A stretch of 11,747 bases of DNA from a virus (Duplodnaviria; Heunggongvirae; Uroviricota; Caudoviricetes): positions 1 to 11,747 of IMG/VR virus record IMGVR_UViG_2698536355_000019. One strand, 5' to 3'. Every line of letters begins with the position of its first letter. Positions within the stretch are counted from its first letter, which is position 1. Made by a program: the position numbers. Shown here one piece after another: positions 1 to 6,000 of the stretch.

Positions 1-3000
1 AAGAAATAGGGCTTCCACCTGGGAAGCCCTTTCTTTTTATAGTTCGGCTGTATGTAGGGTACAGCACGATGAATCTGTTAGAGGCGCAATAGTGACAGAT
101 TTGATTATCAATTCCTATTTTGTTCTAAGGATAAAACCTTAGGTTGTGATCATCCGCACAATCCCTTAGTAACGCCAGCGGTCATAACGCTGATATTTCG
201 GCACTTTTGGTGCTTTAATCGCCTTAATAACCCACACCACCGCAATCGCCAGTAGTAACCACGGCAGCAACTTAATCATCAATGCCAGCATACCGCCGAG
301 GAACATAATGGCCGTCGCCACAACCAGCGCGGCGATAATGCCCAGCAACGAAACGCCGGTGACCATCAGCATGACAAAAAAGCCAATCACAAAAAGTAGT
401 TCCAGCATGATGCTCTCCCAAATATGAAATCTCTTGCTGGCATTACAAGAATCATGCCAAAAATAATCTATTGATTTAACAGCAAAACGCCCCGCGACGG
501 TGCGCAGGGCGTGGTGAATTTGACTACTTTTTGGTGAAAAGTTAACGCTTATCCGCCACCAGTTTGAGCGCGTGTTCCAGCACATTAATGTCTGCACCCG
601 CTTTATGGGCATTTTCACTTAAATAACGCCGCCACTGCCGCGCGCCAGGAATACCCTGGAACAAGCCCAACATATGCCGGGTAATATGGCCGAGATACGT
701 CCCCTGGCTGAGTTCACGCTCAATGTACGGATACATGGCGCGCACTACCGCCACCGGATCGGCATCGGTATCCGAGGAACCAAAGATCTCCCGGTCTACC
801 GCCGCCAGAATACCCGGATTCTGATACGCCTCGCGCCCGACCATCACGCCATCCATATGTTGCAGGTGTGCTTTGGCCTCTTCCAGCGACTTGATACCAC
901 CGTTAATCGACATTGTCAGATGCGGAAAGTCACGCTTCAGTTGATACACACGCGGATAATCGAGCGGCGGGATTTCACGGTTTTCTTTCGGGCTTAACCC
1001 CGAAAGCCAGGCTTTACGTGCGTGGATGATGAACATCTCACACTCGCCTTTGCCGGAAACGGTATTGATGAAATCGCAGAGAAATTCATAGCTGTCCTGG
1101 TCGTCGATGCCAATACGCGTTTTCACCGTCACCGGAATCGACACCACATCGCGCATCGCTTTCACGCAGTCGGCAACCAGCTGCGCATTACCCATCAGAC
1201 ACGCACCAAACATGCCGTTCTGCACCCGGTCAGACGGGCAGCCGACATTCAGGTTGATCTCATCATATCCGCGCGCTTCTGCCAGCTTTGCACACTGCGC
1301 CAGCGCCGCCGGATCGCTACCGCCCAGTTGCAACGCTACCGGATGTTCTTCTTCACTGTACGCCAGATAATCACCTTTACCGTGAATAATCGCCCCTGTG
1401 GTCACCATTTCGGTATACAGCAACGTATTGCGGGAAAGCAGACGCAAGAAATAGCGGCAATGTCTGTCCGTCCAGTCGAGCATGGGAGCAATGCTAAACC
1501 GAGAATTCCAGTAAACACCAGTTTTTTCAGGCATCACGCTGGTTTGATTAATTTTTAGTGTTTCATGATTATCGTGCATTTTTGAACATTTCAGGCTATT
1601 TTTCTCGCGTTAGGTTCCCGCACAGGTTCCCACGTTTTATGGGAACCCGAAATAACGAGGTCGTGTAATGGCGTACTATAACATAGAGAAACGACTAAAA
1701 TCCGATGGCACACCACGCTATCGCTGTAATGTGATTATCAAAGAAAAAGGTGTTATCACTTACAGGGAAAGCAAAACATTCCCTAAACATGCTCATGCCA
1801 AAACATGGGGCACACAGAAAGTGATGGAATTAGATCTATATGGCATTCCATCATCAAATGCAGTTGACGGACTTACAGTCCGTGACTTACTACACAAATA
1901 TTTAAATGACCCAAATGCCGGAGGTAAAGCAGGCCGTACTAAAAGATATGTGCTGGAACTGCTTATGGATAGTGACATCTCCGCGATCAAACTATCTGAA
2001 CTGACAGAAAATGACGTAATTGAACATTGCAGGCTAAGAAACAACGCTGGTGCAGGTCCAGCTACAGTTAGCCACGATGTTAGTTATCTTGGCAGTGTTC
2101 TGGATGCTGCCAAACCTGTATATGGAATTAATTACACATCAAACCCAGCGAAAAGCGCTCGCCCATATCTACTTAAACTTGGTTTGATTGGTAAATCAAA
2201 CCGTCGTAATCGTAGACCAGCATCTGATGAACTGGACATGCTCATTGAAGGCCTTCAACAACGATCTACTCATAAATGCTCAAAAATTCCGTTCGTTGAT
2301 ATCCTCAAATTTTCTGTGTGCTCCTGTATGCGGATCGGAGAAGTATGCCGGTTACGATGGGAAGATCTCGACCAGGAACAAAAATCTATACTCGTAAGAG
2401 ACAGGAAAGATCCACGCAAAAAGGAAGGCAACCACATGAAAGTAGCCTTGCTTGGGGAAGCCTGGGATATCGTCCAACGACAGCCCAAAAAATCGGAATT
2501 CATTTTTCCATATAACAGCACTTCTGTTACTGCAGGATTTCAGAGGGTAAGAAGCAAATTAGGTATTAAAGATCTGCGATACCATGATTTGCGTAGAGAA
2601 GGGGCAAGTCGCTTATTTGAGGCTGGTTTTAGTATTGAGGAAGTCGCTCAGGTTACAGGGCATCGTTCATTAAACGTGCTATGGCAGGTATATACCGAAC
2701 TGTATCCGAAATCTTTACATAATCGTTTTGAAGAGCTCCAAAGGAGCAGAAATAAGACCTCTTGACACTGTTTATCCATACAGTTAAAAATAATACTGTA
2801 TACAAACACAGTATAGAGGGACTTTTATGCGTATTGAGATCTGCATAGCCAAAGAAAAAATGACTAAAATGCCAAACGGTGCTGTGGATGCGTTAAAGGA
2901 AGAATTAACCCGACGCATCAGTAAGCGTTATGACGATGTAGAGGTGATCGTAAAAGCCACCAGCAACGATGGCCTTTCTGTTACGCGCACCGCCGATAAA

Positions 3001-6000
3001 GATTCAGCTAAAACTTTTGTTCAGGAAACTCTGAAAGATACCTGGGAGTCTGCTGACGAGTGGTTTGTTCACTAATTAACACGTAAAATCGGTAACGGCT
3101 GGAAATCATTCAATACTCGCACTATCGAAAGTTCGCCAGCCAGCCGTGGCACGTTCTTGCATACGACGTGCCGCGGATCCTATTATTCTAGTATGAAATC
3201 CCTAACCGATTTCAAATTCTCCAGACTGCTCAGATTCTCTTTTATCCCACGCTGGCGCTGATAAATCTCGTCATTGCAATCGACCTGCGCTATCGCTGCC
3301 GCAGTTCTTCCAGTTTCTGCATCGATAACTCCATCTTCTGAGCAATAAACCTCACCTATGCAATATTTTATGTCAATTATTTCAATTGCATTAATATCTT
3401 GAATGGATTACATAGAGTTAATGTATCCAGTACTCCCTATTCTCTTGCATATAATACATGTTGCAACTTACATCTCAGCGCTATGAAAAAACACCACCTC
3501 TCTCTTTATGAAATTCTGGATTTACCAAGCGCTAATTTATCATTTCAATCTACCTTTAAGCATTGCATTTATCTCCCTACGAGGTCATACTTTAGGAAGT
3601 TAAATATGAATGATAATATACCTACAGCGCGAAATCACAAACAATCGACTTGTATTACAGAAAAAAACATGCCTATCTTTTTAAACTTCACAGCAGGCAG
3701 TATCTTACCTGAGAATGAGCTAGCATCTTTACGTTATATTGTGCAGCAAAATCAAAATGATACTGTAATCATAAAAGAACGTTATAAAATGGATATCCGT
3801 TATATCGAATCAGTCAATGGTTTTACAGTAAATCCTGTATGCAGTAATCATTTCTCCATATTTATGGCGAGACAAAACACTATTGCTCGCAACCTGGAAC
3901 AGCAGATCAACAACGGACGAAGTTTTGCACAAATATCTCAGGATTTTATGCTTCAATTATCTTCAAATATAGGATGGAAAAAAGGGGCCGAAAACGCCCT
4001 TAAAAATAAAATCCATTCTCATTCATTTGTTGTAAATCCTGATGAATTCTCTTGCGACACACAATTTCTTAAGTGCCCAATAACATTATGCGTTCCAGAA
4101 AAAGGGGTTTTTGTCAAGAACGCACTGAACTCCAACATATGCACTCTTTATGATAAGTCTGCGTTCATGAATCTCACAAGAGAACATCTACCCCACCCTC
4201 TCAGCAGGGAAAAGATAGTAAAAGAAATGATTATTGAAAGGAATATGTGTTATTTTGACACCATAAGTCAGCATTTCATAATTATGGATGCAGACCAACA
4301 GAAACAGCATTGTAAATAAAATGTAATAATTACATACTATTAGTGATTCTCATGCATCGTAAGCGGCTCGCCAGAACCGTATTGATATTTACTGAGCGCT
4401 CAGATCAACTTTCCATGGCAACAGATCGCGTACCCGGTTTGCCGGCCAGTCCTGGATATGCTCCCGCCGACAATATTAATGGCCAGGAAATGTTTAAAAC
4501 AATGATTCTGTTTCCTAACCATCAAGTGTATATGCTGGCTCAATTACTCAATATCTATGGGTTGAGTTCTACCCAAAGTGGCTCTGTAGTCGCTTCTTCT
4601 TACAGTATGTTCAGGTGTTGCAGGCACAGTTGTGGAGCGTAGATGCGTTGTTGGTTTACCATGCTCTGGTACATAAAAAACGCCAGTGCCATGGTAACCT
4701 GATATAGAAACGTTAATTCCGCGACGTTCAAACTCGGCATAGACGTGTTCTGCTAAAGACCTCTTTTGACCAAATAATGCCCTGGCCAACCAGCCGTTAT
4801 TCATATTTGCGGATTTTTCTATTTCATCAGGAGAGAAGTCTTTGTTTTTTATTATGTTGGCTGAGTTACAGGATGTTAATCTGATATCATCTATTTCATG
4901 AAGATTATGTTGAACAATGCGGTCGACAATATCTGACGGTGATAAAAATTCATCTCCGCACTTAAGAAGAGGTAGACCAGCAGAACCATGCCCAGACAGA
5001 TAAATTTTGTTGTATTTTCCTGGTGTTAAATCATCTGGCAGGATGGTTTTCATCTCTGTCGCTGTAATACTTATAGCTGCAGCAGCAACAACATCGCTAT
5101 TACTTGATTGTAGATGGCTTTTATTTGCTCCAGGATATGTAAACTCCATTTTCCTTTTATCAAAATCTTGTTTTGTAGCATCATTCAGGAATAATAAATC
5201 ATACGGTTTTTTCCCCGTTGTGACTCTTGAAACATTTTGGCCAAGAATATTAAGAGTATAGTCATTAACGGATTTCATTCCTAAAAAAACAAGTAATCCT
5301 TCTTTCTCTTGCGCTTTTTCGATTGTTCTCCCTGCTAAAGTTATTGGGATGGATTGAGATTGTTTTGTCGGAACTGATACGCTGGCGCTAATAGGTAGTA
5401 GGGTTCTTATGCTAAACATACAACCTCTTTCTTAATTTTCGAACCTGTTTAGGATTCTGTGTAAATTCAAAATAAACCTGTCTGAACATTCCTAACAAAC
5501 ATCCACCGGACATGACAACAAAAAACGGAGCCGGACTCCGGTTTTTGTGAAGCTGTCGGCTATTTCATTCCGCCAATATTTTCCCACGTCCCGTCAGCAC
5601 GCAGAATTTGCAGCGGTCTTACCACGCACTGTATCTGCTTTTTATCCGCATCCAGTATCACCACCTGCGTGATTACCCTGGCCTGCTCCGGGATAATGCC
5701 ATTCTCATCGGACTCCAGAATGTCTGCCGGTCCCAGTCGCAGCTGTGCTGTAGGCGACTGCACGTGTTCACGGCCATCATGCTTTCCGCAACCACACAGA
5801 CACTGCATAAGTTTTTTTAGTATATTCATGTCATTCTCCTGTTCTGCCTGTATCACTGCCCACTTCATCCAGCCCCTTAACATCCTGCCACGGCCCGTCA
5901 CCAAACCTGACCTGCAAATGCCGAAACAGCCCCTGAACCTGTGTGGCATCTTTGGGGTCAAGAAAGGTCAGTCCGGTGATGAGTGCGCCATCTGTATCCG

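What the first reader, a model, noticed from the sequence alone, without database searches (positions are those of the whole stretch)
2762..3075. Tandem LexA boxes place a DinI-like gene under SOS control directly behind the integrase
Two CTGT-N8-ACAG sites, 12 bp apart, lie between a TTGACA hexamer overlapping the int stop codon and the SD of a DinI-family gene. DinI homologues modulate RecA filament activity, and small LexA-repressed DinI-like proteins act as SOS-triggered antirepressors in some temperate phages (coliphage 186 Tum). Here it could be the damage sensor coupling excision or induction of this element to the SOS response, or a device that damps host RecA activity.
Basis: partly seen in the sequence, partly recalled or inferred. 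Interest (0 to 1): 0.55.

Follow-up and report, generated by a model that had tools for sequence, protein, structure and literature searches.

The report
SOS-controlled DinI-like gene cassette in prophage
A small, self-contained phage gene cassette carrying its own promoter with two LexA repressor sites makes a DinI-type RecA-binding protein after DNA damage; it is common in E. coli prophages and is of an already known kind, not a new induction switch.

Summary
A consensus -35 (TTGACA, 2762-2767, overlapping the integrase stop codon), two perfect CTGT-N8-ACAG LexA boxes (2768-2783, 2796-2811), a ribosome-binding site and an 82-aa DinI-family gene (2827-3075) are all present. The boxes are the only two in the window.

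The unit runs from 2762 to 3176 and is a portable "moron". The same promoter, operator, gene, 3'UTR and stem-loop sit behind unrelated DNA in phages cdtI, P-EibC, BP-4795, PhiR12_2 and Stx1/Stx2c phages. Homology breaks exactly at the -35 and at the hairpin end. Adjacency to the dusA-type integrase is therefore incidental, and the boxes lie downstream of int and cannot regulate it.

The protein has the DinI fold and keeps all eight RecA-contact residues. It lacks the Tum antirepressor half, and no Gifsy-type antirepressor ORF follows it. Intact relatives of this prophage carry a self-cleaving CI (S24) repressor.

Best reading: a LexA-repressed, damage-induced modulator of the RecA filament. 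It belongs to the same kind as the LexA-controlled dinI homologues of Salmonella Gifsy prophages. The antirepressor and excision-coupling ideas are not supported. Interest is low to moderate.

The parts
1668..2765 (+). dusA-type tyrosine integrase. This is context, not part of the cassette. Its stop codon TGA (2763-2765) lies inside the cassette's -35 hexamer.
   Evidence: Pfam Phage_integrase at 74.8 bits. dusA lies next to it on the minus strand at 542-1579. A complete 48-kb dusA-integrated lambdoid prophage is present in strain SCPM-O-B-12142.
2762..2767 (+). -35 hexamer TTGACA, which is also the left edge of the portable cassette
   Evidence: Promoter scan. Annotated as a promoter in mEp460. 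Homology with unrelated upstream contexts breaks immediately 5' of it.
2768..2783 (+). LexA box 1, CTGTTTATCCATACAG, which fills the -35/-10 spacer
   Evidence: Half-sites are intact in 49 of 53 IMG/VR loci, while the N8 spacer varies.
2785..2791 (+). -10 region, TAAAAA or AAAAAT
   Evidence: and the mEp460 annotation.
2796..2811 (+). LexA box 2, CTGTATACAAACACAG, which covers the predicted transcription start
   Evidence: Half-sites are intact in 53 of 53 IMG/VR loci and in all 12 aligned phage and prophage contexts.
2815..2820 (+). Shine-Dalgarno AGAGGG, 6 nt before the ATG
   Evidence: Read directly from the sequence.
2827..3075 (+). dinI-like gene, 82 aa. Identical to WP_001217539.1, annotated 'DinI-like family protein'.
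   Evidence: Pfam DinI. Phrog_189 'RecA filament binding protein DinI'. Match to 1GHH/7YWA at E=8e-13. AF2 model matches the DinI structures at TM 0.65-0.68. Annotation.
3076..3143 (+). Sequence-conserved 3'UTR. The predicted hairpin at 3097-3141 has no covariation support. PGAP reads the minus strand here as a capsid-gene C-terminal remnant.
3144..3176 (+). 12-bp stem-loop at the right edge of the cassette. It is a terminator hairpin, but in this copy it is not followed by a U-tract.
   Evidence: Fold at -21.5 kcal/mol. Fourteen sequence variants all fold at the same place with compensating changes. Downstream sequence differs in many contexts: 26 distinct flanking 32-mers, at least about 15 clearly unrelated.

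Best explanation
Window 2762-3176 is an autonomous, horizontally shuffled phage 'moron'. It consists of a strong sigma-70 promoter, two LexA operators, a DinI-family gene and a 3' stem-loop.

In the resting lysogen, LexA dimers occupy both boxes. Box 1 lies between -35 and -10 and box 2 lies over the transcription start, so RNA polymerase is excluded (inferred from position). Two good sites should give tighter repression than the single imperfect box of chromosomal dinI, and release only after a stronger LexA drop (inferred).

After DNA damage, RecA* triggers LexA self-cleavage and the promoter fires. The 82-aa protein then binds in the groove of the RecA filament as E. coli DinI does. Fold and contact residues are shown; binding itself is inferred. 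In the groove it would stabilise the filament and compete with other groove binders (LexA, UmuD, CI-type repressors). That would tune RecA* activity during prophage induction.

It is not the induction trigger and it does not control the integrase. Its position behind int is an accident of where the cassette landed.
For: Operator and promoter:
- Anatomy.
- The mEp460 record annotates the same promoter.

Cassette behaviour:
- The identical promoter-operator-gene unit lies behind unrelated DNA in cdtI, Stx2c, Stx1, P-EibC, BP-4795, PhiR12_2 and Shigella/E. coli prophages.
- Homology starts at TTGACA and ends at the hairpin.
- At least 80% of the cassette is present in 1,409 of 5,426 complete E. 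coli genomes. Matches to any part of it, including a cassette fossil present in nearly every genome, reach 9 places per genome.

Selection on the boxes:
- In 53 IMG/VR loci, substitutions fall in the N8 spacers and flanks.
- Box 2 half-sites are intact in 53 of 53 and box 1 half-sites in 49 of 53.
- Copies whose proteins are only 60-70% identical keep box 2 intact; two of the three (P-EibC, PhiR12_2) also keep box 1, while BP-4795 has lost it.

Protein:
- Pfam DinI.
- Full-length alignment to E. coli DinI.
- AF2 model is beta-alpha-beta-beta-alpha and hits 1GHH and 7YWA.
- The RecA-contact residues defined by cryo-EM and mutagenesis are L13, L21, W71, W77, F78, E24, E69 and D76 (PMC9926225).
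- By the alignment they correspond here to M15, L23, W73, W79, F80, E26, D71 and E78.

Precedent:
- LexA-controlled, mitomycin-induced dinI homologues exist in Gifsy-1, -2 and -3 (PMC3121763; PMC8072944).
- A prophage dinI-like gene (c0943) was down-regulated together with sulA, umuD, recN and dinI (PMC2817434).

Controls: the same site scan recovered the host lexA boxes, the 186 p95 box and the Gifsy-1 box.
Against: - No binding, transcript or protein data exist for this cassette in anything I could search.
- The heterology-index matrix came from sites recalled from memory.
- The 28-bp centre-to-centre spacing is not an integral number of helical turns, so cooperativity between the two LexA dimers is uncertain.
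- The -10 is weak (4 of 6).
- The benefit to the phage is unknown. Non-polar deletion of the Gifsy homologues had no measurable effect on induction.
- NCBIfam's DinI equivalog model scores below its cut-off (72.5 against 111), so this is a paralogue whose activity may differ from DinI.
Confidence: 0.8

Rival explanations
1. SOS-triggered antirepressor (Tum or Gifsy type). The DinI-like protein, once released from LexA control, inactivates the prophage repressor and so acts as the damage sensor for induction.
For: - The LexA-controlled promoter resembles p95-tum of phage 186 and the Gifsy dinI-antirepressor operon.
- PHROG 189 groups DinI and Tum-like proteins together.
Against: - The protein aligns only to Tum residues 70-141, the DinI-like half, at 30% identity. 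The antirepressor half is absent.
- No Tum-N or GfoA-like coding capacity exists anywhere in the window (best tblastn E>2).
- The only ORFs after the stop are junk of 34 aa or fewer.
- In Gifsy prophages the antirepressor is a separate downstream gene, and dinI deletion had no effect.
- Repressors of intact relatives (SCPM-O-B-12142 prophage, mEp460) carry Peptidase_S24 domains, i.e. they are directly RecA-cleavable.
Confidence: 0.04
2. The tandem LexA boxes couple integrase or excision activity to DNA damage.
For: The -35 overlaps the int stop codon, and the two genes are co-oriented.
Against: - The boxes lie 3' of int and cannot repress its promoter.
- No LexA-like site lies upstream of int (best score near 1572 is 15.8).
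- The cassette occurs with a different integrase on the opposite strand (cdtI).
- It also occurs at prophage ends where the DNA immediately upstream is not an integrase 3' end.
- The likely excisionase (PrtN-family) lies at the other prophage end, in the early-left operon.
Confidence: 0.04
3. This is an add-on to the main reading rather than an alternative. In this copy the cassette also acts as a portable SOS-inducible promoter for the cargo downstream. The stem-loop has lost its U-tract, so transcripts read through into the type III effector gene nleG7 (3669-4319).
For: - The hairpin at 3144-3176 is followed by ATCCTATTATTC, not a T-run.
- No terminator-like site lies between 2600 and 3750.
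- nleG7 is on the same strand.
- In BP-4795 an NleA-like effector gene follows dinI on the same strand after 155 nt.
- From my own memory of Mellies et al. 2007 (J Bacteriol 189:2863; only the reference was seen): prophage-borne nleA was reported to be SOS regulated.
Against: - About 490 nt of non-coding DNA lie between the hairpin and nleG7.
- A -21.5 kcal/mol hairpin may still pause or terminate transcription, or only stabilise the 3' end.
- In most contexts the neighbouring cargo gene is convergent (cdt, nleC, eaaC, stf).
- Ciprofloxacin did not raise nleA in EDL933.
Confidence: 0.15
4. The boxes are chance palindromes, or relics that no longer function.
For: - Some lineages (BP-4795, Stx1_499 type) have a degenerate box 1, CTGG...ACAG or ...ACAA.
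- A promoterless fossil of the cassette exists in the core genome.
Against: - Two perfect sites lie exactly over the promoter, against 0.13 expected in the whole window.
- Half-sites are conserved while the spacers vary.
- Box 2 is invariant in every context examined.
Confidence: 0.03

Closest known systems
LexA-controlled dinI homologues of Salmonella Gifsy-1/-2/-3 prophages (Lemire et al. 2011, PMC3121763; Merida-Floriano et al. 2021, PMC8072944)
   Same: - A prophage-borne DinI-family gene with its own sigma-70 promoter overlapped by a LexA box.
- Induced by DNA damage.
- Role in the phage life cycle unclear.
   Different: - The Gifsy genes lie in the nin region and have one box.
- They are the first gene of an operon with a small antirepressor and irsA.
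- The unit here is a single-gene cassette at the prophage end. It has two boxes, no antirepressor, and a protein only about 45% identical.
E. coli chromosomal dinI and DinI protein (1GHH; RecA-DinI complex 7YWA, PMC9926225)
   Same: - Same fold and same length class.
- All eight RecA-contact residues are kept or conservatively replaced.
- LexA-regulated promoter.
   Different: - About 39% identity, and below NCBIfam's equivalog cut-off.
- The chromosomal gene has a single imperfect box, ACCTGTATAAATAACCAGTA, over its -10.
- The cassette has two perfect CTGT-N8-ACAG boxes and is mobile and multi-copy.
Coliphage 186 Tum (p95 SOS operon)
   Same: - LexA box over the promoter.
- The C-terminal half is DinI-like.
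   Different: - Tum is 146 aa, with an N-terminal antirepressor half that this protein lacks.
- The 186 CI repressor is not RecA-cleaved. The relatives of this prophage have S24 repressors.
Lambdoid phage 'morons' and exchangeable effector loci (general concept, from my own knowledge: Juhala et al. 2000; Tobe et al. 2006)
   Same: - An independent transcription unit with its own promoter and stem-loop.
- Inserted between int/att and the tail-fibre or cargo region.
- Found in many different phage backgrounds.
   Different: - Most described morons are expressed constitutively from the prophage. This one is held off by LexA.
- The U-tract of the terminator is not consistently part of the unit.

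Membership tests
DinI family (Pfam PF06183) | Match to the family HMM above the curated cut-off over the full domain | tested here: met
   70.8 bits against a cut-off of 24.2, covering residues 16-80 and profile positions 1-63 of 63. Phrog_189 at E=4e-31.
DinI family (Pfam PF06183) | Beta-alpha-beta-beta-alpha fold of about 80 aa with a C-terminal acidic/aromatic helix | tested here: met
   AF2 model from a single sequence, pLDDT 77. Elements: E2-8, H19-34, E39-45, E50-53, H58-79. Foldseek hits 1GHH and 7YWA at prob 1.00 and TM 0.65-0.68.
DinI family (Pfam PF06183) | RecA-contact residues: hydrophobic pocket L13/L21/W71/W77/F78 and acidic patch E24/E69/D76 | tested here: met
   The alignment maps them to M15, L23, W73, W79, F80, E26, D71 and E78. 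The residue list comes from PMC9926225.
DinI family (Pfam PF06183) | Physical binding to and stabilisation of RecA filaments | not testable with these tools
   Requires purified protein, with EM or ATPase/co-protease assays.
Chromosomal DinI equivalog (NCBIfam NF007893) | Score above the equivalog cut-off | tested here: not met
   72.5 bits against a cut-off of 111. This is a paralogue, not the housekeeping DinI.
LexA (SOS) operator of Enterobacteria | CTGT-N8-ACAG palindrome with an AT-rich spacer | tested here: met
   Two perfect sites. Matches to the 20-nt consensus are 15 of 20 and 17 of 20.
LexA (SOS) operator of Enterobacteria | Position overlapping core promoter elements | tested here: met
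   Box 1 lies in the -35/-10 spacer and box 2 lies 5-20 nt after the -10.
LexA (SOS) operator of Enterobacteria | LexA binding and damage-inducible transcription | not testable with these tools
   Only indirect evidence: Gifsy homologues are induced, and a CFT073 prophage dinI-like gene is co-regulated with SOS genes.
LexA-controlled antirepressor systems (186 Tum; Gifsy GfoA/GftA/GfhA) | An antirepressor polypeptide: the Tum N-terminal half, or a small GfoA-like protein encoded in the same operon | tested here: not met
LexA-controlled antirepressor systems (186 Tum; Gifsy GfoA/GftA/GfhA) | A cognate immunity repressor that is not RecA-cleavable | tested here: not met
   The CI proteins of the intact SCPM-O-B-12142 prophage and of mEp460 have Peptidase_S24 domains at about 68 bits. 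The immunity region is not in the window itself.
Phage moron | Own promoter and 3' stem-loop, and the same unit found in different genomic contexts | tested here: met
   Caveat: the U-tract is absent in the window copy.

The most novel reading that the evidence does not exclude
The multi-copy, LexA-gated DinI-like cassettes of E. coli prophages may act as a phage-encoded, late-SOS competitor for the RecA-filament groove. The protein would stabilise RecA* while occupying the site that CI-type repressors, LexA and UmuD need. Collectively the copies would then set the damage threshold and timing of induction of co-resident lambdoid prophages, Stx phages included, and would restrain UmuD'-dependent mutagenesis. 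The tandem operator would ensure that this happens only under strong or prolonged damage.
Probability: 0.2. Interest if true: 0.55.

Novelty: new member of a known kind. Interest (0 to 1): 0.25.

Why it matters
The cassette is present in about a quarter of complete E. coli genomes, often in several copies. It sits next to toxin and effector cargo (cdt, nleA, nleC, nleG, eib) in Stx and other lambdoid prophages.

If these proteins really tune RecA* activity, they would influence how readily DNA-damaging antibiotics induce Stx phages, and how mutagenic the SOS response is in pathogenic strains.

As it stands, the finding documents an ordinary, already annotated gene. Its SOS-regulated promoter design is a tandem-box variant of what is known from Gifsy prophages and from chromosomal dinI.

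Tried and rejected
- **Genome-contig scan.** A single-protein query returned only four near-identical E. coli/Shigella loci, so it added no diversity.
- **Viral-contig scan.** An alignment query kept only the 80 closest loci (96-100% identity). This was good for a census of the operator but not for distant relatives. Distant relatives came from tblastn against GenBank phages instead.
- **Structure prediction with alignment A3.** The single-sequence model was adequate.
- **Rfam.** Nothing was found in the cassette. A sub-threshold CssrB hit (26 bits against 76) on the minus strand at 3145-3218 was dismissed.
- **3'UTR as a structured sRNA, DinR-like (cf. PMC10907235).**
  - Hairpin 1 (3097-3141) shows no covariation and has several pair-breaking changes.
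  - Only the terminal stem-loop is structurally conserved.
  - I did not pursue this further.
- **Mellies et al. 2007 on SOS regulation of nleA.** The paper could not be read, so it is cited from memory only.
- **Heterology index.** I could not reproduce the published matrix. My own matrix, built from recalled sites, correlates with the published values as I recall them at r=0.82, so the scores are approximate.
- **Literature searches for this specific tandem-box cassette.** They found no description of it in the open-access library. That does not show it is undescribed elsewhere.

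
Full report
**Setting.** The window is E. coli DNA. dusA (542-1579, minus strand) is followed by a tyrosine integrase (1668-2765, plus strand), and then by the feature in question. After that come prophage cargo and tail-fibre debris: NleG-family effectors, an Ibe-like effector, collagen-repeat tail-fibre fragments and an IS3-family element.

The int-dinI stretch is 99.9-100% identical in more than 700 complete E. coli genomes. In strain SCPM-O-B-12142 it is the left end of a complete 48-kb lambdoid prophage inserted in the 5' end of dusA, with a dusA fragment at the other end. 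Free phages mEp460, Lys8385Vzw and PhiR40_1 carry the same module.

- TTGACA is at 2762-2767 and contains the int stop codon (TGA, 2763-2765).
- Box 1, CTGTTTATCCATACAG, is at 2768-2783 and fills the promoter spacer.
- The -10 is TAAAAA(T) at 2785-2791.
- Box 2, CTGTATACAAACACAG, is at 2796-2811 and covers the expected transcription start.
- AGAGGG (2815-2820) and the ATG (2827) follow.
- These are the only two CTGT-N8-ACAG matches in 11.7 kb, against 0.13 expected.
- With an approximate heterology-index matrix built from LexA sites I recalled, the boxes score 2.4 and 4.9. The next best 20-mer in the window scores 12.4.
- The same scan recovers the host lexA operators, the annotated LexA site of the phage 186 p95 promoter, and the Gifsy-1 dinI box as positive controls.
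- The K-12 chromosomal dinI promoter has a single, imperfect box, ACCTGTATAAATAACCAGTA.

**The unit is a portable cassette, and the integrase is only a neighbour.** I compared the upstream and downstream DNA of homologous genes in these sources:
- phages cdtI, 1720a-02, PhiR12_2, P-EibC and BP-4795;
- Stx1 and Stx2c phages;
- several E. coli and Shigella prophages.

Similarity begins exactly at TTGACA. Upstream of that point the DNA is variously the 3' end of the dusA-type int, an unrelated small ORF next to a different integrase on the other strand (cdtI), or GCCCCA-rich repeats at prophage ends.

On the right, similarity runs through a 100-nt 3'UTR and stops at the end of a stem-loop (window 3144-3176). 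What follows differs in many contexts: 26 distinct flanking sequences, of which at least about 15 are clearly unrelated. Fourteen sequence variants of that stem-loop all fold at the same place with compensating substitutions.

In mEp460 the stem is followed by TTTTTCTTTTT, a normal intrinsic terminator. In the window it is followed by ATCCTATTATTC. The cassette is therefore 2762-3176.

At least 80% of it is found in 1,409 of 5,426 complete E. coli genomes. Matches to any part of it, including a cassette fossil described under "Seen in passing", reach 9 places per genome.

**The operators look selected.**
- In 53 IMG/VR loci with enough upstream sequence there are 21 operator haplotypes.
- Changes fall in the N8 spacers, between the boxes and in the flanks.
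- The box 2 half-sites are intact in 53 of 53 loci and the box 1 half-sites in 49 of 53.
- Copies whose proteins are only 60-70% identical (P-EibC, PhiR12_2, BP-4795) keep the promoter and box 2 almost unchanged.
- One lineage (BP-4795 and Stx1_499 type) has a weakened box 1.
- A Klebsiella relative and the Gifsy/mEp237-type genes have a single box.
- The tandem design is thus a feature of this E. coli/Shigella cassette, not of prophage dinI genes in general.

**The protein is a DinI.**
- It passes Pfam's DinI model.
- It aligns end to end with E. coli DinI.
- The predicted model has the DinI beta-alpha-beta-beta-alpha topology and matches 1GHH and the RecA-bound DinI of 7YWA.
- The cryo-EM study of the RecA-DinI complex identified L13, L21, W71, W77 and F78 as the pocket for RecA F203, and E24, E69 and D76 as the acidic patch. 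Mutation of these residues impaired filament stabilisation (PMC9926225).
- In the alignment these are M15, L23, W73, W79, F80, E26, D71 and E78. Five are identical and three are conservative replacements.
- The protein is a paralogue, not the housekeeping protein: it scores below NCBIfam's equivalog cut-off.

**It is not an antirepressor.**
- Tum of phage 186 is 146 aa. This protein aligns only with residues 70-141, the DinI-like half. In PHROG 189 it covers only profile positions 71-149 of 151.
- In Gifsy prophages the antirepressor is a separate small gene downstream of dinI. Non-polar deletion of the dinI homologues did not affect induction (PMC3121763).
- Nothing in the window resembles the Tum N-terminal half or Gifsy-1 GfoA.
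- The 3'-flanking DNA holds only ORFs of 34 aa or fewer.
- The intact relatives of this prophage have a CI repressor with HTH and Peptidase_S24 domains. Such a repressor is cleaved directly on RecA* and needs no antirepressor.

**It does not control the integrase.** The boxes lie 3' of int. No LexA-like site lies 5' of int. The cassette also occurs with other integrases, or in contexts where the DNA immediately upstream is not an integrase 3' end. The overlap of TTGACA with the int stop codon simply marks where the cassette joined.

**Most likely mechanism.**
- LexA holds the promoter shut through two sites that cover the spacer and the start point.
- DNA damage removes LexA.
- The DinI-like protein then accumulates and binds the RecA filament groove, stabilising filaments and competing with other groove clients.
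- Shown: sequence anatomy, mobility, conservation, fold and contact residues.
- Inferred: LexA binding, the timing conferred by two boxes, RecA binding, and any benefit to the phage.
- Confidence that this is a LexA-repressed DinI-type RecA-filament binder carried as a moron is about 0.8.

**A secondary possibility.** In this copy, which lacks the U-tract, transcripts may continue toward nleG7 (3669-4319, same strand). No terminator-like site is found up to 3750. In BP-4795 an NleA-like effector gene follows dinI on the same strand after 155 nt. From memory, Mellies et al. 2007 reported that prophage nleA responds to SOS. I could not read that paper. I rate read-through at about 0.15.

**Novelty.** LexA-controlled prophage dinI homologues are established in Salmonella. 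The gene here is annotated as DinI-like in thousands of records, and mEp460's authors annotated its promoter. My searches of the open-access library found no description of four things:
- the tandem-box operator;
- the exact cassette borders;
- the conservation of the RecA-contact residues;
- the core-genome fossil.

These are incremental additions. I class the feature as a new member of a known kind, with interest 0.25.

**Seen in passing.**
- A promoterless fossil of the cassette lies between ecpE and ykgJ in nearly all E. coli.
- A near-consensus LexA box lies inside the CI repressor gene of intact relatives.
- The host lexA gene lies about 4 kb beyond attR.
- The window contains N runs and triplicated tail-fibre/NleG blocks that suggest assembly problems.

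Noticed in passing
L024:2900-3160 (E. coli MRSN346638, between ecpE and ykgJ); matches window 3018-3174: A decayed, promoterless copy of the cassette lies in the core genome of about 5,200 of 5,426 complete E. coli genomes. It comprises the 3' two-thirds of a dinI-like ORF (with a 22-nt deletion), the conserved 3'UTR and the stem-loop. The 3'UTR part is better preserved than the coding part.
   Followed up: partly
L022:29161-29180 (SCPM-O-B-12142 prophage) and L021:4671-4690 (mEp460); not in the window: A near-consensus LexA box, TACTGTATGTAAAAACAGTA, lies inside the CI-type (HTH+S24) repressor gene of intact relatives of this prophage. It sits in the part that encodes the inter-domain linker. 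Its function is unknown; it could be a second link between this phage and LexA.
   Followed up: partly
window 3144-3190: The cassette's terminal stem-loop (12 bp, -21.5 kcal/mol) has no U-tract in this copy, whereas mEp460-type copies have TTTTTCTTTTT. The next same-strand gene is nleG7 (3669-4319), so SOS-driven read-through into an effector gene is conceivable.
   Followed up: partly
window 3072-3158, minus strand: RefSeq annotates a 'capsid protein' C-terminal pseudogene fragment on the strand opposite the conserved dinI 3'UTR. The cassette may have carried along the end of a convergent phage gene from its original context.
   Followed up: no
window 5560-6400, 8761-9601, 10364-11720 (also 7904-8551 and 9537-10154): Three near-identical blocks of collagen-repeat tail-fibre C-terminal fragments, plus duplicated NleG-like genes, are interrupted by runs of N. 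This looks like scaffolding or collapsed-repeat assembly rather than a clean sequence.
   Followed up: no
window 6533-7746, minus strand: An IS3-family insertion sequence (orfA 7420-7746, orfB 6533-7420) carries an ALIL programmed-frameshift pseudoknot (Rfam RF01497, 119 bits, 7349-7465).
   Followed up: no
window 4544-5419, minus strand: A 291-aa protein with no Pfam hit matches PHROG 6583, 'T3SS secreted effector Ibe', at E=3e-205. It is another cargo gene in the exchangeable effector region.
   Followed up: no
L022:39121-39776: The host lexA-dinF operon lies only about 4 kb beyond attR of the dusA-integrated prophage. Its two operator boxes served as a positive control for the site scan.
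   Followed up: yes
L008:1353-1601 (phage 1720a-02): The dinI-like gene of this dusA-integrating Stx2d phage is mosaic. The promoter and the 5' half of the gene are near-identical to the window. The 3' half and the 3'UTR resemble the PhiR12_2/P-EibC type, which indicates recombination inside the gene.
   Followed up: partly
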